Assembly: GCA_964394565.1 (NCBI GenBank)
Contig: CAYMYA010000001.1
Coordinates: 4,124-68,123 of the forward strand
Direction of reading: 5' to 3'
Source of the DNA: an uncultured Gammaproteobacteria bacterium
GTDB taxonomy: Bacteria; Patescibacteriota; Patescibacteriia; UBA9934
DNA: 64,000 nt
The notes beneath the pieces are model-generated. The model did no database searches. It was not told the DNA's origin and was given only the letters and a program-made list of their open reading frames with translations. Below, in pieces: positions 938 to 62,833 of the stretch. Within the stretch, counting starts at the first letter, position 1, and the number at the start of each line of letters is the position of its first letter. The position numbers were made by a program, and so were the translations under genes.

Positions 938-1963
938 TTAGGTTCGTGCGCGGATGTCGTCAAGAATGATGTGGAGCTCCTCCGCGGTTTTTGCAGTCAT
1001 CATGCGCTCTCGGTCGGGCTTCATGTGAGAAATGCCCTTGAAATACCAGCTCATGTGTTTACGAAACGTGGTCACGGCACCTGGACCATATTGCTCGAGG
1101 TGGAGCGCGAGATGGTAGCGAACTACTGCAATACGTTCTTCCAGGCTGACGGGCGTGGGTGTTTCGCCGCGGGCAATCTGCAAGTATTCCCGGAAGATCC
1201 ACGGATTGCCTAGCGCGCCGCGGGCAATAAGTACGCCATCGCAACTGGATGTTTCGAGTGCTTGTGGAATGCGTGCGGAGGTGTGTATGTCACCATTACA
1301 TAATACCGGAATTGAAACTGCGCGCTTGACACGCCCGACCATGTCCCAATCTGCGACACCGGAATAGCCTTGGGTTTTTGTTCTGCCATGCACCGTGAGA
1401 AGATCAACCCCGGAATCTTCAAGAACTTTTGCGAAGAGTATTGCTTCCGTTGGATCGCTCCACCCCAAACGAATCTTCACAGAAAGCGGAACACGGATGA
1501 CGTTCTTGATTGCGCTCACGATGTGTGCAGCAAGTGCGGGTTCTTTCATGAGTGCTGCACCGTTGAAATTGTGCACGATTTTATAGACCGGACAGCCCAT
1601 GTTGATATCAAAACCTTCCGGGTGATGTTCATCGGTAATCATGCGAGCCGCTTCTGCCATGATTACGGGATCGCTTCCAAAAAGCTGCTGCACGAGCGGC
1701 CGTTCGTCTGCGTGTATTTCCGTCATGCCCAACGTTTTATTGTTTTTTCGCACTACTGCTTCACTCGAAACCATTTCTCGAAAAACAATTGGATACTCTC
1801 TACTCGCGCCTCCTTCTTCGTTCATTCGGAGCTTCGGAGGGACAAGCCGTACCTCGTTCTGTGTCACTGCTTTCACGACACGACAAAACGCACTATCCGT
1901 CATGTCTGCCATGGGGGAGAGCGCAATAATGGGTTTTGGGAGTGCGGACCAGTCGAGACGCAT
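938..1963 (-). CDS. dusB: tRNA-dihydrouridine synthase (Dus family)
   Basis: ORF 938..2089. The conserved Dus N-terminus IALSPMADMTDSAF begins at the internal Met (MRLDWS...), so the start is placed at 1963. The protein has a DINMGCP motif and a TIM-barrel Dus signature. Confidence 0.8.
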   Translation of the reverse strand: MRLDWSALPKPIIALSPMADMTDSAFCRVVKAVTQNEVRLVPPKLRMNEEGGASREYPIVFREMVSSEAVVRKNNKTLGMTEIHADERPLVQQLFGSDPVIMAEAARMITDEHHPEGFDINMGCPVYKIVHNFNGAALMKEPALAAHIVSAIKNVIRVPLSVKIRLGWSDPTEAILFAKVLEDSGVDLLTVHGRTKTQGYSGVADWDMVGRVKRAVSIPVLCNGDIHTSARIPQALETSSCDGVLIARGALGNPWIFREYLQIARGETPTPVSLEERIAVVRYHLALHLEQYGPGAVTTFRKHMSWYFKGISHMKPDRERMMTAKTAEELHIILDDIRART

Positions 1964-2176
1964 AGTAAAAGAAGTATACGGTATTGGGCTCAGTTCCCAC
2001 GAAGCGAGAGCGACGAGGGGTATTGGCGCTCGGGTGGCGTCGAGGGAGGCCTCCAGAGGCGCGCAGACCGACTTTGTCGGTTCGAGCACCTATGGAGTCC
2101 GAGACGACAGGATCCGTCAGTATGCTCATACCCCTCGTCGCCCGAGCGAAGCCTCTATCATGATACAATCGTGCAT

Positions 2177-2401
2177 ATGATGCAAAATATTGAATTTTCT
2201 GAGGAAGAACTGTTCGAGACGATCTGTGAAGAGGGTGTGATACAGGGTGTCGCCACGGAAGCAGCCTATGCGGAGCTCGTCGACGAAATCATCGAGGATT
2301 TGCGAAGAGAATCTGAGTTGGACGACGATCAAAATTTGCCAGGACATGCGGATCACCTCAAGTCGCGGTTTGCGGAATACATTTCACGCATAGCGGAATA
2401 A
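2177..2401 (+). CDS. hypothetical small acidic protein (74 aa)
   Basis: ATG at 2177 begins MMQNIEFSEEELFETICEEG...; the stop lies 1 nt before the beta-CASP RNase start. It is the terminal part of a long spurious ORF antisense to dusB, so coding status is uncertain. Confidence 0.3.
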   Translation: MMQNIEFSEEELFETICEEGVIQGVATEAAYAELVDEIIEDLRRESELDDDQNLPGHADHLKSRFAEYISRIAE

Positions 2402-17573: not shown

Positions 17574-19457
17574 ATGCTTTCTACAAACGATATTCGTCAA
17601 AAGTACCTTGAGTTTTTCCAGCAGCACGGCCACGTCGTCGTACCATCGTCGTCGCTCGTGCCAGAGAACGATCCCACGACACTCTTCACTGGCTCTGGCA
17701 TGCAGCCGATGATTTCGTATTTACTCGGTGAGCCACACCCTGCGGGAACGCGCATCGCGGACAGCCAGAAGTGTTTTCGTTCTGGAGATATTGAAGAAGT
17801 TGGCGACAATCGTCACACGACGTTCTTCGAGATGCTCGGGAACTGGAGCTTGGGCGATTACTTTAAGAGCGAACAGATCCCGTGGATGTATGAGTTCTTG
17901 ACGAGTGAGTTAAAACTCGACCCGAAACATTTGTACGTCACAGTGTTCCGTGGAAGCCCGGAGATTGCCGTTGCTCGTGATGACGAAGCGATTGCGCTCT
18001 GGACGAAATGCTTCGCAACCGCGGGCATCGATGCGAAGCTCGTCGAGAATGCCGAGGTTGGCGGAATACAAGGCGGACGAATTTTCTCGTATCCAGAAAA
18101 GAAAAATTGGTGGAGCCGTGCTGGCGTTCCGGGAAACATGCCTGTTGGTGAGCCCGGTGGGCCAGATACGGAAATGTTTTGGGATTTTGGGGAAGCGTTG
18201 GGTTTGCACGAATCGTCACCGTTCGCAGACCCCGTTTGCCATGTGAATTGTGACTGCGGACGATTCCTCGAAATAGGGAACAACGTGTTCATGCAATATA
18301 AGAAAACGGCAGATGGATTCGTTGAACTCCCTCAGCGTAATGTGGATTTTGGCGGCGGTCTCGAGCGTCTTGCTGCGGCAGCGAACAATGATCCTGATGT
18401 TTTTACGATCGATGTATTCACTCCATTTTTCGATGGAGTAAAGAACAGCTTTGGTTGGGATTATAAAACTGCGACTCCAGAAATGCAGAAAACCCTTCGT
18501 ATTATCGCTGATCATTTACGTGCGAGTATTTTCTTGATCGGTGATGGGATTCTTCCTACGAATAAGGATCAGGGATACTTTGTGCGCCGCTTACTTCGAC
18601 GTGCCATTCTTCGTTCGTGGAAATTGGGTCGCGGTTCATCGAATCTTTATCCATTAGTTCGAGCCTTTACGACAGTATATGCAGACGCTTACCCATATTT
18701 GTTAGAAAAGACAAAAGAAATTCAAACAATCGTCGAAACTGAAGAGACAAAGTTTGCGAAGACGATTGAGCAGGGTCTTCGTGAGCTGAAGAAGATTGTT
18801 GATCGCGGAAATGGCGTGACAGGAACGGATGCATTTAATTTGTATCAATCGTACGGCTTTCCACTGGAGTTGACCACGGAGGAATTGGAACGGTCGCACA
18901 ATCTCAAAATCGATGCAGATCAGTTCGCGGCTGATTTCAAAAAACATCAAGACTTGTCGCGTGCAGGAAGCGAGCAAAAGTTTGCTGGAGGACTTGCGGA
19001 TCATTCGGTAGAAACGACGAAGTTGCACACGGCCACGCATTTGCTGCACCAGGCGCTCCGCATGGTGTTAGGTGATCACGTCGCGCAAAAAGGAAGCAAC
19101 ATCACGGCAGAACGGTTGCGGTTTGATTTTTCACATGGCGAGAAAATGACGTCAGAGCAGTTGGTCGAGGTTGAAAAAATTATAAACGAGCAGATTGCAA
19201 AAGATCTTCCAGTCTCGTTTGATATGTTGACGGTTGAGGAGGCGAAGGCGCGGGGTGCTATCGGGCTTTTTGAAGATAAGTACGCGCAGGTTGGCGATAA
19301 GATCAAAGTGTATTCGGTTGGCGATTTTAGTAAGGAAATTTGTGGCGGTCCGCACGTGGAGCACACGGGGGAGCTGGGAGGAATCACGATTGTGAAGGAA
19401 GAAGCCGTTTCCGCTGGTGTGCGGCGAATCAAGGCTGTGCTTGGGAAACGGGTGTAA
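17574..19457 (+). CDS. alaS: alanine--tRNA ligase (short form lacking the C-Ala domain)
   Basis: Class II catalytic core (FTGSGMQP, FFEMLGNWSLGDYF) plus the editing-domain HxxxH/CGGPH motifs. Length is 627 aa versus about 875 aa for E. coli AlaRS. Confidence 0.9.
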   Translation: MLSTNDIRQKYLEFFQQHGHVVVPSSSLVPENDPTTLFTGSGMQPMISYLLGEPHPAGTRIADSQKCFRSGDIEEVGDNRHTTFFEMLGNWSLGDYFKSEQIPWMYEFLTSELKLDPKHLYVTVFRGSPEIAVARDDEAIALWTKCFATAGIDAKLVENAEVGGIQGGRIFSYPEKKNWWSRAGVPGNMPVGEPGGPDTEMFWDFGEALGLHESSPFADPVCHVNCDCGRFLEIGNNVFMQYKKTADGFVELPQRNVDFGGGLERLAAAANNDPDVFTIDVFTPFFDGVKNSFGWDYKTATPEMQKTLRIIADHLRASIFLIGDGILPTNKDQGYFVRRLLRRAILRSWKLGRGSSNLYPLVRAFTTVYADAYPYLLEKTKEIQTIVETEETKFAKTIEQGLRELKKIVDRGNGVTGTDAFNLYQSYGFPLELTTEELERSHNLKIDADQFAADFKKHQDLSRAGSEQKFAGGLADHSVETTKLHTATHLLHQALRMVLGDHVAQKGSNITAERLRFDFSHGEKMTSEQLVEVEKIINEQIAKDLPVSFDMLTVEEAKARGAIGLFEDKYAQVGDKIKVYSVGDFSKEICGGPHVEHTGELGGITIVKEEAVSAGVRRIKAVLGKRV

Positions 19458-19810
19458 ATGATCATTATAGAAAGTGCTACGGCCGGCCACCTGGGGAAGG
19501 TGGCCGGCCGTTCGTGAGCGGGGGGCTAGCGGCGCTTGTCAGCGTCCGCGCGCTCCCCGGTGGGGAAGAGACGGGGCGCAGTCATCCGGAGCACGTCCGG
19601 GTGACCGGCAAGAGCCGCTTTACGGCTCTTGCCGTTGGGAGGCCGGGCTTCGGCGAGGCGGAGGGCCTCGGCCGGGGACGGGGGGGAGCAGTGGGAAGCG
19701 CAGTGGCGCGCTCCCCGGTGGGCGGCAGACGATCTGCGACTCATCAGCGTGGAACTCCAAATGGAGTAGCGGGATATACCGCCATAGCCCTGGTCAAGAC
19801 GGCCAAGACT
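19458..19810 (+). ncRNA. GC-rich (~70%) highly structured intergenic element, candidate ncRNA of unknown class
   Basis: The segment has a sharp GC excess over flanking sequence, two perfect 12-bp hairpins (19481-19509, 19605-19634), further GC stems and a 17-nt direct repeat GCGCGCTCCCCGGTGGG at 19548-19564 and 19706-19722. Its only ORFs are GC-artefact ORFs rich in Gly/Arg/Pro. It sits between the alaS stop and the infA promoter. Confidence 0.35.
19481..19509 (+). terminator. perfect 12-bp GC hairpin (GGCCGGCCACCT-GGGGA-AGGTGGCCGGCC) 24 nt after the alaS stop; possible terminator, no U-tract
   Basis: Read directly from the sequence. Confidence 0.45.
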
Positions 19811-19869
19811 TAAAAATAATAGCATATTTTGAAGAAAAATCAAAATTTGGCCAATCTGGGGGTAAATTC

Positions 19870-19897
19870 TTGACAGGTTGGGGGGATTTGTTACACT
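19870..19897 (+). promoter_or_regulatory. sigma70-like promoter (TTGACA-16 nt-TACACT) with upstream A/T-rich UP-like tract, driving infA-rpmJ-rpsM operon
   Basis: -35 TTGACA at 19870-19875 and -10 TACACT at 19892-19897, separated by a 16-nt spacer, with an AT-rich 19801-19860 upstream. Confidence 0.5.
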
Positions 19898-19960
19898 TTC
19901 GTCGCTTTACTCAGCGGTTCGTGCGCCCGCGCGAGCGGATGTGGTACGATATCGCAAGTT

Positions 19961-20176
19961 ATGGCGGAAAAAGACTTTATTGAAATGCGCGGTGAGATTC
20001 TGGAAAGTCTTCCCTCGGGAAGCTTTCGCGTGAAACTCGAAAACGACCGCGAAGTCATTGGGCACTTGGCAGGCAAGCTGCGAAAAAATCGCATCCGCGT
20101 TCTGCCAGGCGATGACGTCAAAGTTGAGATCAGTCCATATGATCTCACAAAAGCACGAATCACGTTCCGTTTCTAG
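19961..20176 (+). CDS. infA: translation initiation factor IF-1
   Basis: 71 aa ([70 protein letters not shown]), a full-length IF-1 S1-like fold. Confidence 0.95.
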
Positions 20177-20269
20177 CGGATCGGCATCTCGAGCTTCGAC
20201 CCAATCATCCCTCAATATTTTGGATGATTTTGTCTTATTCCGTTCCGTCGCTAATTCATCAGTCGCATT

Positions 20270-20383
20270 ATGAAAGTTCGCGCTTCCGTCAAAAAGATGT
20301 GCCGCGATTGCCAGGTCATCCGTCGAGAAGGCCGTGTTCGCGTCATTTGTAAGACTCCTAAACATAAGCAGCGACAAGGCTAA
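20270..20383 (+). CDS. rpmJ: 50S ribosomal protein L36
   Basis: Manual translation gives [37 protein letters not shown], near-identical in pattern to E. coli L36. It is absent from the ORF track because it is shorter than 60 aa. Confidence 0.9.
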
Positions 20384-20386
20384 TCT

Positions 20387-20773
20387 ATGGCACGTATTGC
20401 TGGTGTAACTCTTCCGTCGCAGAAGCGTCTCGTGATTGCTCTGCAGTATATTTACGGCGTTGGTGAAAAGCGCGCCATGGATATTTTAGATCGCGCAAAG
20501 GTTAGCGGTGATGTCCGAGTGAAAGATCTGTCACCCGAGCAAGAAAACGCCGTTCGTACTATTGTGGAAAAAGAATATCGTGTCGAAGGTGAGTTGCGCC
20601 GCGATGTGATGTCGAACATTAAGCGCTTGAAGGATGTTGCTGCGTACCGCGGCGTGCGTCACATGAAAGGACTTCCTGTCCGTGGACAGCGTACAAAATC
20701 CAATTCACGAACTGTGCGCGGCAACGTGCGCAAGACTGCAGGAAGCGGTCGTCGTGTTCTTGCAAAGACCTAA
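20387..20773 (+). CDS. rpsM: 30S ribosomal protein S13
   Basis: [26 protein letters not shown]... is the S13 signature. Confidence 0.95.
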
Positions 20774-20776
20774 GCT

Positions 20777-21229
20777 ATGACTGAAGAAACCATCATCGAG
20801 ACCCCAGCAGTAGAAATGACTGCTGCAGAAGCGTCCAATGCAAAGAAGGCTGCCGCCAAGGGAAAAAAGAAGGCGGTGCGTCAAATCCCACAGGGTCGCG
20901 CATACGTTCATGCAAGTTTCAATAACACGATCGTGTCGTTGACGGATGCAAATGGAAACGTGATTGCGTGGTCGAGCGCTGGAAATTGTGGCTTCAAGGG
21001 TCCAAAGAAGGCAACGCCATACGCTGCAAGCGTGATTGTGAAGAAGATCACGGAGAAGTGCGAGCCGTACGGACTGAAAGATCTTCACGTCTTTGTGACG
21101 GGGATCGGAAATGGTCGTGATGCCGCAGTTCGTGCACTGAATACATCAGGGTTTAACGTGCTCTCCATTAAGGACACGACGCCGGTACCACACAATGGTT
21201 GCCGCCCGCGCCGTGCTCGTCGCATGTAA
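20777..21229 (+). CDS. rpsK: 30S ribosomal protein S11
   Basis: GRAYVHASFNNTIVSLTD...LHVFVTGIGNGRDAAVRAL is the S11 signature. Confidence 0.95.
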   Translation: MTEETIIETPAVEMTAAEASNAKKAAAKGKKKAVRQIPQGRAYVHASFNNTIVSLTDANGNVIAWSSAGNCGFKGPKKATPYAASVIVKKITEKCEPYGLKDLHVFVTGIGNGRDAAVRALNTSGFNVLSIKDTTPVPHNGCRPRRARRM

Positions 21230-21232
21230 TCT

Positions 21233-21853
21233 ATGGGAAAGAATTTGAGCCCAATGGGCAAAATGAGTCGTCGCGAAGGGGTTGCGCTGTCAACGTCGAT
21301 GTCGACGCTCAAAGTGATGCAGAAGCGACCATACATTCCTGGTGTGCACGGCAAGGCCGGCATGCGCCCAGCGAAGGTATCGGTTTTCGGTACGCAGTTG
21401 CGCGAGAAACAAAAAGCAAAGCGTTTGTACGGTATTTTGGAGCGTCAGTTCCGGAACTACTTTACAAAAGCAACGAGCATGCCGGGCAACACGGGTGAAA
21501 ATCTTGGTCGATTGCTGGAGATGCGGTTGGATAACGTGGTATTTCGTCTCGGATTTGCAAAGACGCGTCCACAGGCTCGTCAAATGGTAAGCCATTGCAT
21601 GTTCCTGGTGAATGGGCAAAAAGTAAACATCGCATCATATTCCGTGAAGGTGAATGATACGATTGAGATCAAGGCGAACAAAAAGGCGAAGAAGGTTTTT
21701 TCAGATCTTGATGAACGCCTGAAAACACACCGTGTTCCAGGGTGGCTGCACCGCGAGGGTGAGGTCGGTAAAGTGGTGAGTCTTCCAATGGGGGATGATC
21801 TGAAGGAAGCATACGATCCAAAGCTCATTATCGAGTTCTACTCGATGCGCTAA
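21233..21853 (+). CDS. rpsD: 30S ribosomal protein S4
   Basis: The S4 N-terminus and the S4 RNA-binding domain (RLDNVVFRLGFAKTRPQARQMVSHCMFLVNGQKVNIASY) are present. Confidence 0.95.
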   Translation: MGKNLSPMGKMSRREGVALSTSMSTLKVMQKRPYIPGVHGKAGMRPAKVSVFGTQLREKQKAKRLYGILERQFRNYFTKATSMPGNTGENLGRLLEMRLDNVVFRLGFAKTRPQARQMVSHCMFLVNGQKVNIASYSVKVNDTIEIKANKKAKKVFSDLDERLKTHRVPGWLHREGEVGKVVSLPMGDDLKEAYDPKLIIEFYSMR

Positions 21854-21878
21854 ACGCTTAGTCCCATAATTTCTCACT

Positions 21879-22628
21879 ATGGAGACCATCTTCCTTCCCT
21901 CAAAAATGCATTTCGCGCCAGGCGCTGCGATGCATGAAAGTATTCTCACCATTGAGCCGTTGCATCATGGGTACGGCACAACGGTGGGCAATGCGCTACG
22001 TCGTGTCATGCTTTCTTCACTTCCTGGTGCGGCAGTGACCGCCATGAAAATCAAAGGTGTTCAGCATGAGTTTTCTACGGTGCCCGGTGTAAAAGAGGAC
22101 GTACTCGATATCATGCTGAACTTAAAGAAGTTACGCATGAAGGTACACTCAGAGGAGCCGGTGACGTTGAAGCTCGTTGCAAACAAGGAAGGCGTGGTGA
22201 CTGCGGAAGCATTTGAAAAGAATGCAGATGTGGAAATCGCAAACGCCGATCTTGAGCTCGCAACGATTACTGACGCAAAGGCGGTACTCGATTTGGAAAT
22301 CACGGTTTCCCGCGGACGCGGTTATGTTCCAACAGAGGAGCGAGACAGCGCACCAACAGAAATCGGTGTGATCTCTATTGATGCGATGTTCAGCCCAGTA
22401 CGAAACGTCGGATTCCGTGTTGAGAACACTCGTGTTGGAGAAATCACCAACTACGACAAGCTCATCATGAATATCACCACTGATGGCACCGTGACACCGC
22501 AAGAAGCTGTTGAACAGACCACAAAAATTTTACTCAATCACTTCACGTGGATTCAGGGTCAACTCAACCACGCAAGTCTCACTGAACAGATTGCCCGTGC
22601 ATCGGAGGACGCCGAGCCAACCGAGTAA
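21879..22628 (+). CDS. rpoA: DNA-directed RNA polymerase alpha subunit, N-terminal domain only (no alpha-CTD)
   Basis: TIEPLHHGYGTTVGNALRRVMLSSLPG aligns with the E. coli alpha NTD. The protein ends at 249 aa with an acidic tail and rplQ follows directly, so no CTD is encoded here. Confidence 0.9.
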   Translation: METIFLPSKMHFAPGAAMHESILTIEPLHHGYGTTVGNALRRVMLSSLPGAAVTAMKIKGVQHEFSTVPGVKEDVLDIMLNLKKLRMKVHSEEPVTLKLVANKEGVVTAEAFEKNADVEIANADLELATITDAKAVLDLEITVSRGRGYVPTEERDSAPTEIGVISIDAMFSPVRNVGFRVENTRVGEITNYDKLIMNITTDGTVTPQEAVEQTTKILLNHFTWIQGQLNHASLTEQIARASEDAEPTE

Positions 22629-22633
22629 ATCGT

Positions 22634-22984
22634 ATGCGTCATCGAAATAAAACAAAAACACTGGGCCGCAAGGCTGCTCCACGGAAGGCGCTTATTCGCG
22701 ACTTGGTTACCGCAATGGTAACGTATGAGCGCATTGAGGTCACTGCAGGTAAGGCACGTGTTGCCCGTCCAGTTGTGGAAAAAATGATCACGATTGCGAA
22801 GAAGAACACTCTCGCATCTCGTCGCCAGCTTTTGGCATACTTCACCACGGAGCAGCCAGTGAAAAAGCTCATTGAAGTTCTTGCGCCACGATTTAAAGAT
22901 CGCAATGGTGGGTATACGCGCATGACCAAGATGGGAACGCGTCAGGGCGATGCTGCAGAAACGGCAATGATTGAATTTGTCTAA
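22634..22984 (+). CDS. rplQ: 50S ribosomal protein L17
   Basis: MRHRNKTKTLGRKAAPRKALIRDLV... is the L17 signature. Confidence 0.95.
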   Translation: MRHRNKTKTLGRKAAPRKALIRDLVTAMVTYERIEVTAGKARVARPVVEKMITIAKKNTLASRRQLLAYFTTEQPVKKLIEVLAPRFKDRNGGYTRMTKMGTRQGDAAETAMIEFV

Positions 22985-22985
22985 T

Positions 22986-23342
22986 ATGGCAACCCCAACA
23001 CGAAAAACCTATACAGTTGATGCATCGGGAAAGATTCTCGGGCGTCTTGCGACGGATATTGCAATGCACCTCATGGGCAAGACGAGTGCGGTGTTTCAGC
23101 CGAACATCGATGCTGGTGACGAAGTTGTCGTGACGAACGTTGCGAAGATTAAGGTGACCGGAAAGAAGTACGAGCAGAAGAAGTACTATACACACTCAGG
23201 TCAGCCGGGTGGTTTGAAAACAAAAACCATGCGCCAGATTTGGGAAAAAGAGCCAGCAGAAGTTCTGCGGCAAGCGGTTTCACGCATGTTACCGAAGAAC
23301 AAGCACCGCACGGCACGCATGATTCGTCTCACTATCTCGTAA
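22986..23342 (+). CDS. rplM: 50S ribosomal protein L13
   Basis: MATPTRKTYTVDASGKILGRLAT...: L13 family, a short 118-aa version. Confidence 0.9.
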   Translation: MATPTRKTYTVDASGKILGRLATDIAMHLMGKTSAVFQPNIDAGDEVVVTNVAKIKVTGKKYEQKKYYTHSGQPGGLKTKTMRQIWEKEPAEVLRQAVSRMLPKNKHRTARMIRLTIS

Positions 23343-23343
23343 T

Positions 23344-23736
23344 ATGGCAACCAAGTATTTTCAAGCAATTGGTCGCCGCAAGACGGCAACCGCACAGGTG
23401 CGCATTTCTGTAGGATCTGGGAAGATTGTCGTGAACGGGAAGCCGTTCGAAACATTTTTCACGACTGAAGAACTTCGCGGTGTTGTGGTGCGCCCACTGA
23501 AGGAAGTAGGGAAGGCGGATGCATTTGACGTGAGTATTAAAACGGTTGGTGGCGGTATGGTTGGTCAGGCCGATGCATCACGCCTCGGTATTGCTCGTGC
23601 CCTTGTTGAAATGGAGGCAGAGCTCAAGACGGCACTCAAGGCCGCTGGTCTCATGACCCGTGATCCACGAAAGAAGGAGCGCAAGAAGTTCGGAAAGCGC
23701 GGCGCACGCCGCAGCCCACAGTGGCGCAAGCGTTAA
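23344..23736 (+). CDS. rpsI: 30S ribosomal protein S9
   Basis: The C-terminal GARRSPQWRKR and a GGGMVGQA core are the S9 signature. Confidence 0.95.
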   Translation: MATKYFQAIGRRKTATAQVRISVGSGKIVVNGKPFETFFTTEELRGVVVRPLKEVGKADAFDVSIKTVGGGMVGQADASRLGIARALVEMEAELKTALKAAGLMTRDPRKKERKKFGKRGARRSPQWRKR

Positions 23737-23792: not shown

Positions 23793-23951
23793 ATGAAGTT
23801 TTCTGAAATCGTTAGAGCTGTTCGGCGCATTGGAAAGGGAAGGAATAAAGCTTTTGAAACAAAACCTATTTCGCGCGATCAGCTGAAGAAGGCGGCAGAA
23901 AGATTTTCTACCAACTATGGTGGTGTCATTAAGGATCTTTCTAGAGAATAG
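23793..23951 (+). CDS. putative antitoxin (Phd-like partner of Doc), 52 aa
   Basis: Small ORF MKFSEIVRAVRRIGKGRNKAFETKPISRDQLKKAAERFSTNYGGVIKDLSRE ending 2 nt before the Doc-family gene. It is below the ORF-track size cut-off, and the antitoxin call is positional. Confidence 0.4.
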   Translation: MKFSEIVRAVRRIGKGRNKAFETKPISRDQLKKAAERFSTNYGGVIKDLSRE

Positions 23952-23953
23952 GT

Positions 23954-24370
23954 GTGAAACTTGTTTATCCCACGCGTCCTGAGATCGAAGAGTGGGCGAC
24001 TTGGGTTGGGAATTCGGGTTCACTGTATAAATACTTGCCAATTGTAGATGCCCGTTGGGCTAAGATAATTGAGGGTGAGTTTCAACTTACGGCATTAAGT
24101 CAGGACAGAAATGACGCGTTGAGATTTTCGGCGAGGCTGTTCTATCGAATAATAAAAAATCACAGATTTGTTGACGGGAATAAACGATCGTCTCTGGTAA
24201 ATGTTTATCTTTTCTTATCGATGAATGGGCTAGAATTAATGATTCCTCCGAGGTTACTTTATCACCTCGCAAAACAAGTTGCTGGTTCAGACGACGATCA
24301 AGAAGTCGTGATCAATATGATCGCAAAACGGTTTGGGGAAGATATTAAGGTTTGGGTAAATAAAGACTAG
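23954..24370 (+). CDS. doc: Doc/Fic-family toxin (death-on-curing)
   Basis: The Fic/Doc active-site motif HRFVDGNKRSSL (HxFx[D/N]GNKR) is present; the gene is 138 aa with a GTG start. Confidence 0.8.
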   Translation: MKLVYPTRPEIEEWATWVGNSGSLYKYLPIVDARWAKIIEGEFQLTALSQDRNDALRFSARLFYRIIKNHRFVDGNKRSSLVNVYLFLSMNGLELMIPPRLLYHLAKQVAGSDDDQEVVINMIAKRFGEDIKVWVNKD

Positions 24371-31706: not shown

Positions 31707-33488
31707 TTACTGTTGAATACGAATATTGATGTGATCAGGAATTTCTGGAAAATGGCGTTGCCATGTGTGAAAGATTTCTCGTGAGATTTTTGCCGTAAGC
31801 ATTCCGTGACGTTCGACAAGATGAGGGATGAATATCGAGGGGAGATCTTCGCGTGACGCGTGTTCAAATGTGACGATGACGCCAAATGGTGGAAGGAGAT
31901 ATGTCTGTCGCATTGCACATTCGTGCATGAGCACGTGCTCTGGTCCAAGCAATGTCAGGAGCCGATCGCGTGCGATGGTTTGAATGATGCATTCGGCATG
32001 TTCTCGTGCGGCGAAATGTTGGAGTCGCTGAATTTTCCGTGCAGTCTTTTCGGCACCACGAAAATCTCCCGGGGTATAACCTACGTCGGCGAGGAGTTCG
32101 GCGACAAGCCCGAACCCATAGGTGTGGAAGGGAATGAGCACACTGCTCCAAAAATATTCCGTCACGACAACGATATCAGCAGTGAGATCTATACGCCCTT
32201 TCTCGATCTGTCCGATGCTGTGAGAAGGGAATACGACTTTGAGATCGTCGACAATGCGCGCACCGCCCACAAGCCTTGGTCCTACTTTCTGTGAGCCACA
32301 GGCGGGACATGTTGTTGGCTTCCACATTTCCGCACCGCAGGCTTCGCAAAGAAGATCTTGCAGCCGCACGACGGGAAGGTTTCCGCACGTTCCGCAAAAT
32401 GGCACATGGCCACAGTCTTTACACTCTAGACGTTTTGCAACGCCTTTGCGGTTTAAAGAGAGTAGCACTCTTTTTCCGCTATGTAAAGCCGTTTTTATGG
32501 CCTCTAAGAGTGTTTGTGAGAGGAGTGGATAGCCGCTTGATTCTCCGCGGTTTGTGGTGTCAAGAATTTGCGGCGCAGAAGCCTGATATTGAGCGGAGAG
32601 ATGTTCTTGACGCGGTGTCTGATCAGCGCGCGCACACGAATGCTCGGTTATTGGTGGAAGAGCATCGGTAAGAACAAGACGCGCCCCGTGAAGCGCTGCG
32701 AGTGCCGTTGCGGTACGGACGGCATCGATGTGGGGATTCCGCAGTACACTCCCATGATCTTCACACGCCGCTTGAACCACAAGAATGGTTTCCAGAGACT
32801 TTGGTTCAATCAGTACCGTCTGTCGTGTACCGACAAGGAGTTGATGATCGCCGCGCTTCCATGTGCGAAGTACTGCATTCCGATCCGATGGTTTTGTTTT
32901 CCCCGTAAGGAGCATGGGACGGAACGGGCTCAGGAGCTTTTCAAAAAAACGTGCATCACGTTCTCGCGGGACAAGAATGATGGTTTGGCCACGAGCAGAG
33001 GTTGTGAGCGCATGAGCGAGGACGGCGACGGTTTCGTCATCTGTCGCGAAAGATGCATATGGGGATTCGCGGATAATTTTCAGCATGCTGCGTACCACCG
33101 TGATGATATCTTTTGGTATGGAAAATGAAGGGGAGGCTCCGGGATTCTGAACCGAGAACGATGCGTCATATGGCAGAAATCCCTCAAACGCAACACTAAG
33201 AATAGACGACATCGATTGTCCGAGCTCAGTTGCAATGGTGTGCAGATGCTTTCGTTGCGTTGCGCTGACGGAAAACAGTGCAGGCGATGGTGACAGTTCG
33301 ATCACACGTGGCTCTGCGGTCGTCTCGCAGATTTCTTGAATGAGGCCAAACATTGGACGGTGGCGGAAGGAAATATTGACGATATCGCCAACGCGAACAG
33401 GACTTCCGTTTGGGATACGGTAATCGAATGCCCCAAACCGTCGGGGAAGTTTCAAGATCGGGTATATTTTTGCGAACACAATCATCAA
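31707..33488 (-). CDS. priA: primosomal protein N' (PriA)-like, Walker A (P-loop) degenerate
   Basis: A PriA-like N-terminal 3'-DNA-binding domain and a helicase-core alignment to E. coli PriA (GQTIILVP ~ GKQALVMVP; LLVGTRQTVL ~ IVIGTRSALF) are present. So is the Cys-rich zinc region (CKDCGHVPFCGTCGN...CEACG...CPACG). The GxxGSGKT motif is absent. Confidence 0.75.
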   Translation of the reverse strand: MMIVFAKIYPILKLPRRFGAFDYRIPNGSPVRVGDIVNISFRHRPMFGLIQEICETTAEPRVIELSPSPALFSVSATQRKHLHTIATELGQSMSSILSVAFEGFLPYDASFSVQNPGASPSFSIPKDIITVVRSMLKIIRESPYASFATDDETVAVLAHALTTSARGQTIILVPRERDARFFEKLLSPFRPMLLTGKTKPSDRNAVLRTWKRGDHQLLVGTRQTVLIEPKSLETILVVQAACEDHGSVLRNPHIDAVRTATALAALHGARLVLTDALPPITEHSCARADQTPRQEHLSAQYQASAPQILDTTNRGESSGYPLLSQTLLEAIKTALHSGKRVLLSLNRKGVAKRLECKDCGHVPFCGTCGNLPVVRLQDLLCEACGAEMWKPTTCPACGSQKVGPRLVGGARIVDDLKVVFPSHSIGQIEKGRIDLTADIVVVTEYFWSSVLIPFHTYGFGLVAELLADVGYTPGDFRGAEKTARKIQRLQHFAAREHAECIIQTIARDRLLTLLGPEHVLMHECAMRQTYLLPPFGVIVTFEHASREDLPSIFIPHLVERHGMLTAKISREIFHTWQRHFPEIPDHINIRIQQ

Positions 33489-34278: not shown

Positions 34279-35646
34279 TTACTCGACGGCACCAAGATCT
34301 GCGCCGACCTTGTGAAGATTTAACACGTCATCGCTCACAAAGACAATATTTTCCCACGCGTACCCATAATCATTGAAGGTTTGTTCGCTATCGATTGCGT
34401 GACGCTTTCCTTCAGCAACAACGTACACCGTTGGATTTTCCATGGAACGCACGAGTGTTCCATCGGGAAGTTTCAGAAACGCCCCTTCGCGGTATTGTTC
34501 AATTTCTACTGGTTCTGCGGATTCTATGCGTGCACTCGGCATTTGCGCTTCAAGAATCGCGGGATCCAAAATTGCCATGCGCTGGCCGTCTTTGAGGAGA
34601 AACATTGCTCCGTTTTTCAGCTGCACCACGCGACCTGACGGATCTTGTGTCGCTGCAGTGATTGGTTCGCCAACTTCGTATGTGGCAACTTCTTGTGCGG
34701 TAATCTCAATGAGTTCCGCTTCAGAAAAGCCTATTGAACGAAATGCTTCCATGGATTCAATATGTCGCATGGCATCGTCAACAAGCAGATAAATATTTCC
34801 ATGTTCATCCTTGACAAGAGAATAATTTGCTAACGATATTTCATCGCCGACCGGATATTGCTCAAGAACTGTGGATGCAACCGTAATGATGAGACGAGCA
34901 TTATAGCGCGACGTCAGTGCGCTTTGGCTGGTGATGGGTCGGCGATACCCTTGTTCAATACGCCACACGCCGCTTTCACCCGCAGCCTGCAGCAGTGTTC
35001 CAGTCGGATATTCTTTTCCGAACCATGCATCCCAAATTTTCACAAAGTTTTCATTGCCGTGCAAATGGGGCGTATATGCATACATTGCTGCAGTCGCAGC
35101 ATTGAATGGTACGACCGTGGTTCCGTCAATGTTCACGGGGACATTCGTGCCATATTTTCCCGCGGTCACTCCGTACGTTTCGATGTCCGCTAAATATCCC
35201 TCGATAAATTGCAATGAAGCAGAGTTGATTTGCTTTCCAAATCCCTGCCAACGCGAAACACCGGCATCGGTCATGGAACAATCGTCACATACACCGTAAC
35301 CTGTCGCCCAATCGTATTGTTTTTCAGTGGGATCTTGATCTTCAACGAGACTCTGCTCTTTTTGCAGGAGGACTAAGAGGAAGCGAGGATTGATGCCGTG
35401 TTGTTGTGCGGCGCGCCAAATAATGTCTGCTGCATTGCGTGTAACGCCTTCCCAGTCTGCGGTGCGATACTCTGCGAGTGTCCCGCGTTCCAAAAATGCT
35501 TGGATCTGATTTCGATCCATCGCTTGAGCATCCTGAAGTTCTTCATCTGAAATGATATAATTTGGATTAAATGCCAAAGCGCTGGCTGGCAAAAGGAGGG
35601 CAAAAAATCCCCCAATGGTACTAAGAAGCAGTGATCGTATAATCAT
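34279..35646 (-). CDS. secreted hypothetical protein (possible cell-wall hydrolase-like)
   Basis: The start is set at MIIRSLLLSTIGGFFALLLPASALA (signal peptide), with a ~430-aa mature region and no clear motif. Confidence 0.55.
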   Translation of the reverse strand: MIIRSLLLSTIGGFFALLLPASALAFNPNYIISDEELQDAQAMDRNQIQAFLERGTLAEYRTADWEGVTRNAADIIWRAAQQHGINPRFLLVLLQKEQSLVEDQDPTEKQYDWATGYGVCDDCSMTDAGVSRWQGFGKQINSASLQFIEGYLADIETYGVTAGKYGTNVPVNIDGTTVVPFNAATAAMYAYTPHLHGNENFVKIWDAWFGKEYPTGTLLQAAGESGVWRIEQGYRRPITSQSALTSRYNARLIITVASTVLEQYPVGDEISLANYSLVKDEHGNIYLLVDDAMRHIESMEAFRSIGFSEAELIEITAQEVATYEVGEPITAATQDPSGRVVQLKNGAMFLLKDGQRMAILDPAILEAQMPSARIESAEPVEIEQYREGAFLKLPDGTLVRSMENPTVYVVAEGKRHAIDSEQTFNDYGYAWENIVFVSDDVLNLHKVGADLGAVE

Positions 35647-35742
35647 ACGTTCACAGTATAGCGAACCCCTCGTGCGTTGACACGTTTCGCCTGGGGAAGC
35701 ATTATTTGGCCGTAGGATACGTATAATTTTCTTCATCACATT

Positions 35743-36330
35743 ATGGCAAACCTTTCCGTTCCAATTCAAAAATTTATGCCGAATTTGCTCCATCTTTTGT
35801 CGCCTTGGGCAAATGAGGAAAAGCGTATTCTCAATGGTTTGATCGAGGTAAATGCGCGAAGCATTAACAAATATGAGTTCATTACAGAAACAGGCCACCT
35901 AAAGCTCGACCGGGTTGGTTACTCAACACTGTCGTATCCTGGAGCATACGGATTGATTCCTCAAACGTGGGACCAGGATAACGACATGCTGGATTTTATT
36001 CTTGCGAATGTCACGGAAACGCTTGTCCCTGGATCGCTCGTGGAATTGCGCGTGATTGGGATTATGAAGTTTGAGGACGGCGGAGAAATTGATGACAAAA
36101 TTATTTGCGTTCCTGCCGACGATAAACGATCTGATCACATCGTTTCGTATAAAGATTTGGGTGCGCATTGGGAAAAGGAAACTGCACATTACTTTGAGTA
36201 TTACAAACACTTGAAAAAGCCAGGAACATGCAAGGTACTCGGATTTTTCGAGGCCGACGAAGCGGTAAACGTCATTCGCGAATGCACTGAAAGGTATCGT
36301 ACAGAAATCCTTCCGAAGATCGAGGGGTAG
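35743..36330 (+). CDS. ppa: inorganic pyrophosphatase (family I)
   Basis: NKYEFITETGHLKLDRVGYSTLSYPGAYGLIPQTWDQDNDMLDFIL matches the family I PPase core. Confidence 0.85.
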   Translation: MANLSVPIQKFMPNLLHLLSPWANEEKRILNGLIEVNARSINKYEFITETGHLKLDRVGYSTLSYPGAYGLIPQTWDQDNDMLDFILANVTETLVPGSLVELRVIGIMKFEDGGEIDDKIICVPADDKRSDHIVSYKDLGAHWEKETAHYFEYYKHLKKPGTCKVLGFFEADEAVNVIRECTERYRTEILPKIEG

Positions 36331-60341: not shown

Positions 60342-61109
60342 TTACACGTTAGGGAACCATAGTGTCACCAGAATTGAGAGAACAGCCAGTGCAGTCGCAA
60401 AACGCATCATGCGCACTGGCGATACCGTCATAAAGCGTTTCACCGCCATTCCCAATGCATCCATCAAGACAACACTCACAAGCACTTTACCCCCCAAGAT
60501 GCCGATGGCCAAAACCCAGACGTCGTGTGTGATTGAAGTTCCCATCGTGATCATCGCAAGAGCATTGACAAAAAGTACGCCAAACGCTGCCCGCAAAAGC
60601 ATGGTGACATCGCGCGTATGATCAGACGGTTTCTCCAACGCGACGGCTAGCAGGAAGAGGGCAAACGCAACAAGAGCAAGAACCACCCCAAACGTTGGAG
60701 TTTGTGCAAGGAGAGCAAGCACCTGACCAGTACGTAATTGTGCTGTTGCAACCCCAAACGCGAGAAACACCGTGCCAAATCCACACAATGCCAACGGCAA
60801 TACCGACGTCCTCTCAATTACCGCAATGCTACCCCCAATAAGCGCGAAGAGTGCAATAAACGTCAAAATATTTCCGTCGCTTGCTTGATCAACTGGTACG
60901 TGGATGAGCGGCAAAAGTGCGAGAGAAACCGCTGTCGCACCGAATGCAAGTGCAGCAACCGGAGACGGGACTCGTCGATACGCAACCCACGGGGGAATCC
61001 AGGTTTTGTGCTGTATCACGGAAACAAAAGTTTCCCAAAGTCCTGCCGCAGATGGCGCAAGGATGAGAAGAGCGAGTGTCTGAAGAACCGAGAATTCTAA
61101 AAATGTCAT
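60342..61109 (-). CDS. hypothetical polytopic membrane protein (between the two antiporter-like subunits)
   Basis: 255 aa with about 7 TM helices, sharing an operon with its neighbours (4-nt overlaps). Confidence 0.5.
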   Translation of the reverse strand: MTFLEFSVLQTLALLILAPSAAGLWETFVSVIQHKTWIPPWVAYRRVPSPVAALAFGATAVSLALLPLIHVPVDQASDGNILTFIALFALIGGSIAVIERTSVLPLALCGFGTVFLAFGVATAQLRTGQVLALLAQTPTFGVVLALVAFALFLLAVALEKPSDHTRDVTMLLRAAFGVLFVNALAMITMGTSITHDVWVLAIGILGGKVLVSVVLMDALGMAVKRFMTVSPVRMMRFATALAVLSILVTLWFPNV

Positions 61110-62833
61110 AACGCAATTGCGAAAGTAAGAATAACCGCGAGCATCATGAACACGAGCGAAGGTGTGACGACTCTCGTTACATAGCGGTCATGCCATGCGT
61201 ACAATGTTCGCCACTGTTCTTGCGCGGGTACCGCAATGTATTGAATACACAATTTCCGTACCTCTCGGAAAAATATATGAATACGTGCATCGGGAACAGG
61301 AGCATGTACCTGCTCCTTTGCATCCACGAAATTTCCCATCTCAATACGCAATGTTTTGTCGCGAAGCGCCCAATATGCCAGACTGCACACCATGATCCCG
61401 AGCGCGAGAACGGCCGGACGAAGCAAGGCACCCCCTGCAACAACGGCTCCCTGCCACGTCTGTGCATCTTGCGTTAAGGGCTCTGCGCCAATCGCGTACA
61501 ACGCAAACGGAACAAACACGGCTCCAACCACAGAAAATCCAGATGTCAGTATTGCTGCAACGTTCCGCCATGCAAAACGTTGTTTTGCATGAACGGCCGT
61601 CCGAATATTCTCGATGATGGCATACCCCTGACGGACAAGTGAGCCAAGTACGATCAAAAAACCCAGGGCAAGCGCGAGTGCAAATGTGCGTGGCAGAAGT
61701 GTGAACTGTAACACCATCACGCTCCCGAACATCCATTGGCTCACAAACAGAAGCGAAAGAGGAACCCCTAACCGAGCAACCCCGGAGATTGCGTACTCGA
61801 TGCCACCACCTGTCTCGTCACCAGAATTTCCCCCAAGCACCACACCGATACTCTGAATAATCGTTGCGAAAAGCACGATATTCATGGCTTCATACATGTT
61901 CAGAGATTGGAAAAGCATCGTCGCACTCAACATGAAGAGGACGAAACCGACACCATGAACACATGAGATGCCGCCAAATGCATGACGTTTAGATGCGTAC
62001 CGTGTAACAGAAAGAATCGTCATGATGCCAAGAAGTCCAACAGGAAGCGCAAACCATATATCGAGTGGTGGAAATACAAAAAGTAAGAGCCGAAGAAAAA
62101 GGTACAGCGGCGCAAGAAACCATGCCGTTTGCATGAGTGCCCGTATAGCTCCCCCAGGCACGCTACCACCATCTGCACTCGCCATGCGTGCAAATGGCCA
62201 TGCGCCGGAACACGCCAAAACACCGAGAACGATTGCACTAAATGCCCCAATCAACCGCGGGAAATCAAGTTCAGCAGCAATGTATGCCAACGTCGCAAAG
62301 TCATTAAACAATGCACCAGAAGAAAGGATGAAGAGTCCCGCCGCTATGAAAAGCACACCGATCCCCCTCACCACGAACATCCTGATGCGCTTAAACACCA
62401 CGCACGCCTCTGCACACATCAACAGCATCAATGCCGCAAGAACGCCAAGAATGTTCGTGGACAATACGAGCCACGTCATGCCGAACGAAAGCAGTGCGAT
62501 ACCGAACACGGTGAGAAACGCTTGTTCCTGAGTTTTTCGGTGAACATACCACTCTACCCCGAGTGCGAGCATCACAAGGCTAAACGGGAATATAAACATC
62601 GCCGCAAACGTATCGAGTGTTGCAACCATGCTAAAAAATGCGTTCGTTGGCAACAAAAAAGGATCGGGAGATATCACACCAAAAACACTAGCAAGCACTC
62701 CAGCGACTCCCACTGCCGCAAAAATCAACGCATTCGCACGCTGTGCCTGTTCCTGTGCAAGAAACCACATACCGATCACCGCAATAATCGGCCCAAGCAT
62801 CACCACAGCCATCGACCATTCCCAAGGCGTCAT
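61106..62833 (-). CDS. divergent proton-antiporter-like membrane subunit (NuoL/MrpA/HyfB-like)
   Basis: 575 aa, about 16 TM. AWPFARMASADGGSVPGGAIRALMQTA is a degenerate version of the [25 protein letters not shown] motif. Confidence 0.5.
   Translation of the reverse strand: MTPWEWSMAVVMLGPIIAVIGMWFLAQEQAQRANALIFAAVGVAGVLASVFGVISPDPFLLPTNAFFSMVATLDTFAAMFIFPFSLVMLALGVEWYVHRKTQEQAFLTVFGIALLSFGMTWLVLSTNILGVLAALMLLMCAEACVVFKRIRMFVVRGIGVLFIAAGLFILSSGALFNDFATLAYIAAELDFPRLIGAFSAIVLGVLACSGAWPFARMASADGGSVPGGAIRALMQTAWFLAPLYLFLRLLLFVFPPLDIWFALPVGLLGIMTILSVTRYASKRHAFGGISCVHGVGFVLFMLSATMLFQSLNMYEAMNIVLFATIIQSIGVVLGGNSGDETGGGIEYAISGVARLGVPLSLLFVSQWMFGSVMVLQFTLLPRTFALALALGFLIVLGSLVRQGYAIIENIRTAVHAKQRFAWRNVAAILTSGFSVVGAVFVPFALYAIGAEPLTQDAQTWQGAVVAGGALLRPAVLALGIMVCSLAYWALRDKTLRIEMGNFVDAKEQVHAPVPDARIHIFFREVRKLCIQYIAVPAQEQWRTLYAWHDRYVTRVVTPSLVFMMLAVILTFAIAL

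What the first reader, a model, noticed from the sequence alone, without database searches (positions are those of the whole stretch)
21879..22628. RNA polymerase alpha subunit lacks the C-terminal domain
rpoA ends at residue 249, just after the NTD, with an acidic tail (ASEDAEPTE). rplQ starts 6 nt later, so no alpha-CTD is encoded here, although the NTD aligns well with E. coli alpha. The alpha-CTD normally contacts UP elements and many activators. Its absence implies altered promoter architecture or regulation, or a CTD encoded elsewhere.
Basis: partly seen in the sequence, partly recalled or inferred. Interest (0 to 1): 0.5.

Follow-up and report, generated by a model that had tools for sequence, protein, structure and literature searches.

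The report
RNA polymerase alpha naturally lacking CTD
This ultra-small (Uhrbacteria-type, candidate phyla radiation) bacterium encodes an RNA polymerase alpha subunit that has only the assembly domain and has lost the DNA- and activator-binding C-terminal domain; the loss is shared by all of its sampled relatives and has so far been mentioned in print only in a single sentence.

Summary
ORF 21879-22628 (+) encodes a 249-aa RpoA with both N-terminal-domain Pfam families and no alpha-CTD. It stops (TAA) inside the former interdomain linker. A complete rplQ starts 5 nt after the stop codon, in another frame.

It is not an artefact. All 120 closest database homologues (73-96% identity) are 232-253 aa and NTD-only. 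All 80 GTDB species-representative loci (56-92% identity; Uhrbacteria, Falkowbacteria, Buchananbacteria, other Parcubacteria) encode 227-296-aa alphas without a CTD. A CTD profile found nothing in six frames of 1.38 Mb (the window plus 82 loci).

Other Patescibacteria keep the CTD, so this is a secondary, lineage-wide loss.

Residues 226-241 (QGQLNHASLTEQIARA) are under purifying selection. The last 8 residues vary but stay acidic.

Most likely this alpha is only the assembly scaffold, and promoter use relies on sigma alone. That is an inference.

A stand-alone CTD elsewhere in the genome could not be excluded.

Side finding: sister lineages carry a Lys-rich or AT-hook (KRGRPKK) tail in place of the CTD.

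The parts
21879..22628 (+). rpoA: RNA polymerase alpha subunit, 249 aa, N-terminal domain only, TAA stop at 22626-22628
   Evidence: ORF. Pfam PF01193 and PF01000, no PF03118. NCBIfam TIGR02027 261.8 bits (cutoff 227.8) and NF003519 284.4 bits (cutoff 277). AF2 model pLDDT 89.9. Foldseek TM 0.8-0.9 and rmsd 1.6-2.5 A to alpha NTD chains in RNAP structures.
21879..22553 (+). Residues 1-225: alpha NTD (dimerisation domain plus insert domain), including GNALRR (residues 37-42)
   Evidence: Invariant columns R41, R42, H63, E64, D74, G146, G148, D168, P173 and T201 in a 36-sequence alignment.
22554..22601 (+). Residues 226-241 (QGQLNHASLTEQIARA): clade-conserved extension of the last NTD helix, aligned with the start of the interdomain linker of B. 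subtilis alpha
   Evidence: The motif is present in 116 of 120 close homologues. Only 19% of differing codons change the amino acid, against 37% in the core, over 20 loci. Predicted helix 207-244 with falling pLDDT. Aligns to B. subtilis residues about 227-243.
22602..22625 (+). Residues 242-249 (SEDAEPTE): short, variable, acidic C-terminal tip
   Evidence: 87% of differing codons change the amino acid. Mean net charge of the last 9 residues is -2.1 in 120 homologues.
22634..22984 (+). rplQ (ribosomal protein L17), complete, starting 5 nt after the rpoA stop codon, which leaves no room for a CTD
   Evidence: PF01196 positions 1-97 of 97, E 2.8e-34. Same arrangement in L001 and L002.
19961..21853 (+). 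Upstream genes of the same cluster: infA 19961-20176, rpmJ 20270-20383, rpsM 20387-20773, rpsK 20777-21229, rpsD 21233-21853
   Evidence: ORFs. rpsD Pfam. Identical order with Pfam labels in L001 and L002.
22977..23736 (+). Downstream genes: rplM (ATG 22977, to 23342) and rpsI (23344-23736)
   Evidence: ORFs. L13 and S9 at the same position in L001 and L002.

Best explanation
The gene natively encodes a CTD-less alpha subunit. An ancestor of this Uhrbacteria-type lineage (Parcubacteria group, Patescibacteria/CPR) lost the folded alpha C-terminal domain. The reading frame now ends inside the former interdomain linker. What remains is the complete N-terminal domain, a conserved 16-residue helical extension and a short acidic tip. 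By analogy with E. coli alpha truncated at about residue 235, the NTD should be enough to dimerise and nucleate assembly of the alpha2-beta-beta' core and to support basal, sigma-directed transcription. The enzyme should therefore be unable to read UP elements through alpha or to be recruited by activators that contact the alpha-CTD. Promoter strength would then be set by sigma-DNA contacts alone. This fits the very small regulatory repertoire of these reduced, probably episymbiotic bacteria. Shown here: the domain content, the fold, the conservation of the truncation and the selection pattern. Inferred: assembly competence and the consequences for promoter use.
For: Domain content. No CTD in any frame of the window or of 82 related loci, 1.38 Mb in all (best E 1.4, a helix-hairpin-helix match inside ribosomal protein S13). 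All 120 closest homologues are NTD-only and 232-253 aa. All 80 GTDB loci at 56-92% identity have 227-296-aa alphas without a CTD. Synteny infA-rpmJ-rpsM-rpsK-rpsD-rpoA(247 aa)-rplQ-rplM-rpsI holds on an 839-kb contig and on an independent MAG. The NTD is intact: AF2 pLDDT 89.9 and TM 0.8-0.9 to alpha NTDs in solved RNAPs; 40-47% identity to B. subtilis, Thermus and E. coli alpha. There is purifying selection on residues 226-241 and a free but acidic tip. CTD-containing alphas exist in other Patescibacteria (P0130, P0143 and P0148 with PF03118), so the state here is a secondary loss. Literature: the NTD suffices for assembly and basal transcription, the CTD is needed for UP elements and activators, and CTD loss is reported for Hodgkinia, Tremblaya and, in one sentence, Parcubacteria (PMC8321222). 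Ligand-binding CRP/FNR regulators are notably absent from CPR (PMC12531629).
Against: No biochemical data exist for any CPR RNA polymerase. Only 64 kb of this genome and about 20 kb around rpoA in relatives could be searched, so a detached or fused CTD, or a second full-length rpoA paralogue elsewhere, is not excluded. An A/T-rich tract lies upstream of the promoter-like site before infA (19808-19848). This shows that A/T-rich upstream DNA is not absent, although the tract lies further upstream than a canonical UP element. The strong conservation of residues 226-241 suggests the remnant does something more than end the protein.
Confidence: 0.85

Rival explanations
1. Sequencing or assembly artefact, or a pseudogene: a frameshift or premature stop cut off a normal CTD.
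For: None found. MAG-derived sequence can carry such errors in general, and about half of the CTD-less entries among the 150 distant representatives do look like frameshifted or chimeric predictions.
Against: A complete rplQ starts 5 nt after the stop codon, so there is no downstream DNA for a CTD. The same end point (247-251 aa) is found in more than 100 independent assemblies and in 80 GTDB species. The remaining tail is under purifying selection.
Confidence: 0.01
2. Split gene: the alpha-CTD is encoded elsewhere in the genome, either as a separate small protein or fused to another protein, and acts in trans.
For: This cannot be excluded, because only 64 kb of the genome and the rpoA neighbourhoods of relatives were searchable.
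Against: No CTD-like sequence in six frames of the window or of 82 related loci, 1.38 Mb in all. CTD function depends on its tether to the NTD (established knowledge of alpha). Sister lineages have replaced the CTD on the same polypeptide by short basic tails rather than relocating it.
Confidence: 0.07
3. A second, full-length rpoA paralogue exists elsewhere in the genome, as with the two alphas of Francisella, and the NTD-only copy forms heterodimers with it.
For: There is precedent for two alpha paralogues in one bacterium (PDB 6wmp chains A and B, 'subunit alpha 1' and 'alpha 2', listed).
Against: The NTD-only gene sits in the canonical rpsD-rpoA-rplQ position. None of the 80 best GTDB loci carries a CTD. 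Genomes of about 0.8-1 Mb rarely keep paralogues of core genes (inference).
Confidence: 0.03
4. The remnant is not passive: the conserved helical extension (226-241) plus the acidic tip is a new functional module, for example a docking site for another factor or a DNA-mimicking acidic tail that modulates upstream contacts.
For: Residues 226-241 are at least as constrained as the NTD core: 19% against 37% amino-acid-changing codon differences. The motif is in 116 of 120 homologues. The tip always stays acidic.
Against: The segment aligns with the beginning of the ordinary linker of B. subtilis alpha. Its conservation could simply reflect capping of the last NTD helix. More distant CTD-less relatives lack the motif. 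Model confidence falls to 64-74 there.
Confidence: 0.2

Closest known systems
Canonical bacterial RpoA (e.g. B. subtilis, 314 aa, PDB 6wvj_A; E. coli, 329 aa)
   Same: Same NTD. Pfam PF01193 and PF01000. The B. subtilis match has E 1.9e-61 over query 24-244, with about 47% identity in the Foldseek structural alignment to 6wvj_A. TM 0.8-0.9 to alpha NTDs in solved RNAPs. Same position in the rpsM-rpsK-rpsD-rpoA-rplQ cluster.
   Different: Lacks the helix-hairpin-helix C-terminal domain (PF03118) of about 70 residues and most of the flexible linker. It ends at the equivalent of about residue 248 of B. subtilis alpha.
Laboratory C-terminal truncations of E. coli alpha (about residues 1-235), as summarised in PMC8321222 with its refs 64-67
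   Same: Same architecture, NTD only. Those proteins assemble core enzyme and give basal transcription but do not respond to UP elements or CTD-dependent activators.
   Different: Those are engineered proteins. Here the truncation is the natural and only detected form, it is fixed in a clade, and it carries a conserved 16-residue extension.
Natural CTD-less alphas of extremely reduced endosymbionts (Candidatus Hodgkinia, Candidatus Tremblaya), plus the statement that Parcubacteria also lost the CTD (PMC8321222). Euglena plastid rpoA is cited there too.
   Same: Natural loss of the alpha-CTD with retention of the NTD in organisms with reduced genomes. Uhrbacteria belong to the Parcubacteria group.
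   Different: The window's organism is not an intracellular endosymbiont with a tiny (<0.2 Mb) genome. Related contigs reach 0.8-1.0 Mb. The Parcubacteria statement is a single sentence. The paper it cites, Nelson & Stegen 2015, only lists rpoA as a core gene and never mentions the CTD. The Euglena paper could not be read.
Archaeal RpoD / eukaryotic Rpb3 alpha-like subunits
   Same: Also scaffold subunits made of a dimerisation domain plus an insert domain, without a bacterial-type CTD.
   Different: Sequence affiliation is clearly bacterial. The archaeal RpoD model NF001988 scores 19.6 bits against a cutoff of 153. There is no Fe-S or zinc module.

Membership tests
Bacterial RNA polymerase alpha subunit (RpoA; TIGR02027 / COG0202) | N-terminal domain: Rpb3/Rpb11-type dimerisation domain (PF01193) interrupted by the RpoA insert domain (PF01000) | tested here: met
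   PF01193 residues 26-222, E 4.8e-23. PF01000 residues 57-172, E 1.1e-30.
Bacterial RNA polymerase alpha subunit (RpoA; TIGR02027 / COG0202) | Whole-protein score above the curated equivalog cutoff | tested here: met
   TIGR02027 261.8 bits against 227.8. NF003519 284.4 bits against 277. The other RpoA sub-models fall below their cutoffs because the C-terminal third is missing.
Bacterial RNA polymerase alpha subunit (RpoA; TIGR02027 / COG0202) | Three-dimensional fold of the alpha NTD | tested here: met
   AF2 pLDDT 89.9. Foldseek E about 1e-27, TM 0.8-0.93, rmsd 1.6-2.5 A to alpha chains of E. coli, Thermus, Mycobacterium and Staphylococcus RNAP.
Bacterial RNA polymerase alpha subunit (RpoA; TIGR02027 / COG0202) | Conserved genomic position rpsM-rpsK-rpsD-rpoA-rplQ | tested here: met
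Bacterial RNA polymerase alpha subunit (RpoA; TIGR02027 / COG0202) | C-terminal DNA- and activator-binding domain (PF03118) on a flexible linker | tested here: not met
   No PF03118 at E<=1. The profile match stops at position 245 of 320. No CTD in any frame of the window.
Bacterial RNA polymerase alpha subunit (RpoA; TIGR02027 / COG0202) | Forms the alpha2 dimer that nucleates beta and beta' assembly | not testable with these tools
   Inferred from the intact NTD and conserved GNALRR / HEF / EDV motifs. Needs reconstitution.
Naturally CTD-less alpha subunits (Hodgkinia, Tremblaya, 'Parcubacteria' per PMC8321222) | Reading frame ends after the NTD or within the linker, with no PF03118 | tested here: met
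Naturally CTD-less alpha subunits (Hodgkinia, Tremblaya, 'Parcubacteria' per PMC8321222) | Truncation is inherited and conserved in the lineage, not a one-off lesion | tested here: met
   120 of 120 close homologues and 80 of 80 GTDB loci. Purifying selection on the remnant.
Naturally CTD-less alpha subunits (Hodgkinia, Tremblaya, 'Parcubacteria' per PMC8321222) | No CTD encoded anywhere else in the genome | tested here: inconclusive
   Absent from 64 kb of this genome and from 82 related loci, 1.38 Mb in all. Whole genomes could not be fetched.
Archaeal RpoD / eukaryotic Rpb3 alpha-like subunits | Sequence membership (NF001988 RpoD model) | tested here: not met
   19.6 bits against a cutoff of 153.

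The most novel reading that the evidence does not exclude
Within the Parcubacteria-type CPR bacteria the upstream-DNA-contacting module of RNA polymerase has been remodelled repeatedly. The folded alpha-CTD was lost. In some lineages it was replaced, on the same acidic linker, by a minimal minor-groove binder: a Lys-rich tail that often ends in the AT-hook core KRGRPKK, and in one case two SAP/Rho_N-like motifs. In the window's Uhrbacteria clade it was dropped altogether. If the basic tails really bind A/T-rich upstream DNA, a 10-residue AT-hook would be a natural functional substitute for the alpha-CTD/UP-element contact. The window's organism would then represent a bacterial RNA polymerase with no alpha-mediated upstream contact at all.
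Probability: 0.3. Interest if true: 0.6.

Novelty: new member of a known kind. Interest (0 to 1): 0.4.

Why it matters
The alpha-CTD is usually treated as a universal part of bacterial RNA polymerase. It is the route by which UP elements and many activators (for example the CRP class) raise promoter strength. A large, environmentally widespread clade that has fixed an NTD-only alpha shows that this whole layer of control is dispensable outside extreme endosymbionts. It also predicts sigma-only promoter architecture in these organisms.

This matters in three practical ways. It affects promoter prediction and the interpretation of CPR (meta)transcriptomes. It bears on any attempt to reconstitute or engineer CPR transcription. 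It also helps annotation, because NTD-only rpoA in these lineages should not be flagged as partial or as a pseudogene.

The finding itself is an extension of something already stated briefly in the literature, so its stand-alone novelty is modest. The systematic picture is apparently undescribed: clade-wide loss, a conserved remnant, and AT-hook or Lys-rich replacements in sister lineages.

Tried and rejected
1. Frameshift or read-through rescue. Translation past the TAA gives 31 unrelated codons. Six-frame HMM and tblastn searches for a CTD were negative.

2. Literature. Searches combining rpoA, CTD or RNA polymerase with Patescibacteria, candidate phyla radiation or the CPR group names found nothing specific. 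A search for PF03118 alone also found nothing relevant. The only statement found is one sentence in PMC8321222. Its cited source, Nelson & Stegen 2015, has no word 'polymerase' in the main text and only lists rpoA in a core-gene table. Meheust 2019 does not mention the CTD. No paper linking AT-hooks to alpha was found. The Euglena rpoA paper is not held.

4. Phylogenetic mapping of CTD presence. The NJ tree timed out. Average-linkage clustering of 140 NTDs put nearly everything at 45-55% identity with CTD+ and CTD- forms interleaved. The number of independent losses cannot be stated.

5. Does the basic-tail type go with A/T-rich genomes? Median GC is 41% for basic tails against 49% for acidic or short tails, Mann-Whitney p = 0.20, not corrected for phylogeny. 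This gives no support.

6. Exact look-up of the window's RpoA in the assembly collection: not on record.

7. A database search with a CTD query for stand-alone CTD proteins was considered and not run. Only the best 120 hits are listed, so ordinary full-length RpoAs would swamp any stand-alone CTD, and contig-end fragments would mimic one.

8. About half of the 73 CTD-less entries among the 150 distant representatives are frameshifted or chimeric predictions (Arg/Ala/Pro-rich or foreign-domain tails). They were not counted as genuine.

Full report
**What is in the sequence**

The ORF at 21879-22628 on the + strand starts with ATG, encodes 249 residues and stops at TAA (22626-22628).
- Pfam finds the two families that make up the alpha N-terminal domain: PF01193 (residues 26-222) and PF01000 (residues 57-172). 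It finds no alpha-CTD (PF03118), even at E<=1.
- NCBIfam's rpoA equivalogs are matched only over their first three quarters (positions 20-245 of 320 for NF003519; 3-226 of 298 for TIGR02027). The scores still exceed the curated cutoffs of those two models.
- The best solved relative is B. subtilis alpha (314 aa). Query residues 24-244 align to its residues 24-243, so the protein ends inside what is the interdomain linker in Firmicutes. E. coli alpha aligns over 17-220 with E 1.4e-48.
- A complete L17 gene (PF01196, positions 1-97 of 97) starts at 22634, 5 nt after the stop codon and in another frame.
- Reading through the stop gives only 31 unrelated codons.
- tblastn with E. coli, B. subtilis and Thermus CTDs, and an HMM I built from 77 diverse CTDs, find nothing in any frame of the 64-kb window.

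**It is a real, inherited feature**

The 120 closest proteins in a 5.8-billion-sequence collection (73-96% identity) are all 232-253 aa and carry only the two NTD families. Those with names are 'Patescibacteria group bacterium' or 'Candidatus Uhrbacteria bacterium'.

A relative at 74% identity lies on an 839-kb contig and on an independent MAG. Both have exactly the same order: infA-rpmJ-rpsM-rpsK-rpsD-rpoA(247 aa)-rplQ-rplM-rpsI.

A scan of one genome per GTDB species returned 80 loci at 56-92% identity. They are mostly Uhrbacteria, with Falkowbacteria, Buchananbacteria and other Parcubacteria.
- In all 80 the alpha ORF is 227-296 aa.
- The CTD HMM finds nothing better than E = 1.4 in six frames of the window plus 82 loci, 1.38 Mb in all. 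The weak hits are the helix-hairpin-helix of ribosomal protein S13.
- NCBI places Uhrbacteria in the Parcubacteria group of the Patescibacteria group.

**It is a secondary loss**

I searched 1.84 billion cluster representatives and examined the best 150.
- 77 carry a recognisable CTD and 73 do not.
- About half of the 73 are obvious frameshifted or chimeric predictions. The rest are genuine short alphas.
- Pfam confirms the split: PF03118 in P0130, P0133 and P0143, and none in P0122, P0125, P0129, P0140, P0229 and P0219.
- Several CTD-containing representatives are themselves labelled Patescibacteria (P0130, P0143, P0148).

Both states therefore exist within the phylum, and the window's lineage has lost the domain. 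Clustering of the NTDs did not resolve how many times this happened.

**Anatomy of what remains**

The AlphaFold model (pLDDT 89.9) superposes on alpha NTDs from E. coli, Thermus, Mycobacterium and Staphylococcus RNA polymerases with TM 0.8-0.93 and rmsd 1.6-2.5 A. The GNALRR, HEF and EDV motifs are conserved.

The last NTD helix is predicted to continue to residue 244, with falling confidence.

Residues 226-241 (QGQLNHASLTEQIARA) are present in 116 of 120 close homologues. Across 20 related loci only 19% of differing codons in this segment change the amino acid, against 37% in the NTD core. The final eight residues change freely (87%) but stay acidic. The remnant of the linker is therefore constrained, for reasons unknown.

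**How it most likely works**

It is established for E. coli that the NTD alone dimerises, assembles core enzyme and supports basal transcription. The CTD is needed for UP-element recognition and for activators that contact it (summarised with primary references in PMC8321222).

By that logic this alpha is an assembly scaffold only, and promoter recognition rests on sigma. This fits the reduced regulatory repertoire of CPR bacteria. For example, ligand-binding CRP/FNR regulators are notably absent from the CPR clade (PMC12531629).

These functional steps are inference. Nothing about assembly or promoter use was or could be tested here.

A promoter-like site (TTGACA-16-TG-TACACT, 19870-19897) precedes infA, but such matches are no more frequent than in shuffled sequence.

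**Rivals**
- An artefact is excluded by conservation and by the abutting rplQ.
- A CTD encoded elsewhere, or a second full-length alpha as in Francisella, found no support. Neither can be excluded, because whole genomes could not be retrieved. I give them about 0.07 and 0.03.
- The conserved extension might be a small functional module of its own. I give that about 0.2, and it is compatible with the main explanation.

**Comparison with what is known**

The protein passes every membership test for bacterial RpoA except the CTD.

Natural CTD-less alphas are documented for Hodgkinia and Tremblaya. [quoted passage not shown] The paper it cites there never mentions RNA polymerase in its text and only lists rpoA as a core gene. 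Five further literature searches found no other treatment.

The window is therefore a new, well-supported member of a known but barely described kind.

**Side finding**

Eighteen of the 80 GTDB loci, and about 26 of the distant representatives, carry an acidic linker followed by a lysine-rich end in place of the CTD. Six of these 44 tails end in the exact AT-hook core KRGRPKK. None of 2000 composition-preserving shuffles reached that count. Pfam's AT_hook model gives a sub-threshold hit in P0140.

One representative (P0147) instead has two SAP/Rho_N-like motifs, also sub-threshold.

These look like minimal DNA-binding replacements for the CTD. The window's clade has none. Tail type does not track GC content significantly (p = 0.20), so the DNA-binding reading remains a hypothesis.

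**Verdict**

The kind is known but the instance is new. Interest is moderate (0.4).

Noticed in passing
Related loci L037, L044, L047, L048, L057, L059, L060, L062, L063, L065-L067, L070, L072, L076, L078, L081, L082 (rpoA 3' ends); proteins P0129, P0132, P0140, P0229: In sister Parcubacteria-type lineages the alpha-CTD is replaced by an acidic linker plus a Lys-rich C-terminus. Six of 44 such tails end in the exact AT-hook core KRGRPKK, and 0 of 2000 shuffles reach that count. This could be a minimal substitute for UP-element (minor-groove A/T) binding. No paper describing it was found.
   Followed up: partly
Protein P0147 (332 aa, representative library), residues about 255-332: A CTD-less alpha whose tail is two tandem repeats resembling SAP/Rho_N/Ish1 helix-extension-helix DNA-binding motifs. 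PF18953 gives E 8e-5, below the curated cutoff.
   Followed up: no
window 19470-19800 (+), between alaS and infA: A spacer of about 330 nt that is very G+C-rich within a 49.6% GC window. It folds into a string of near-perfect hairpins (MFE -198.8 kcal/mol, z = -7.5). It has no Rfam family at threshold. It is not repeated in the window and not conserved in 82 related loci. The 169-aa ORF over it (19474-19983) has no Pfam hit.
   Followed up: partly
window 19808-19897 (+): A promoter-like site TTGACA-16 nt-TG-TACACT (19870-19897) lies about 60 nt before infA. An A/T-rich tract (19808-19848) lies upstream of it, further upstream than a canonical UP element. Such consensus matches are not enriched over shuffles.
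   Followed up: no
window 23793-24370 (+); L001 11920-12512 (-): A 52-aa ORF followed by a 138-aa Fic/Doc-family gene (PF02661) sits directly after rpsI. The same small-ORF plus Fic pair is at the same place in a 74%-identical relative, but on the opposite strand. This looks like a Phd/Doc-type toxin-antitoxin pair kept next to the ribosomal protein cluster.
   Followed up: no
window 17574-23736 (+): The alpha operon is detached from the S10/spc ribosomal protein operons. alaS and a spacer lie upstream of infA, and rplM-rpsI are joined directly downstream of rplQ (the annotated rplM ORF overlaps the rplQ end). The same holds in L001 and L002.
   Followed up: partly
Loci L007, L008, L011, L019, L022, L023, L025, L031, L033, L073 (OZ246408.1) and others: Many GTDB-representative MAG records whose rpoA region is plainly Uhrbacteria/Patescibacteria are titled 'uncultured Gammaproteobacteria bacterium' in the public record.
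   Followed up: no
window 31707-33488 (-), 34279-35898 (-), 61106-62833 (-), 1370-2401 (+): Four large ORFs (593, 539, 575 and 343 aa) have no Pfam match at E<=1e-5.
   Followed up: no
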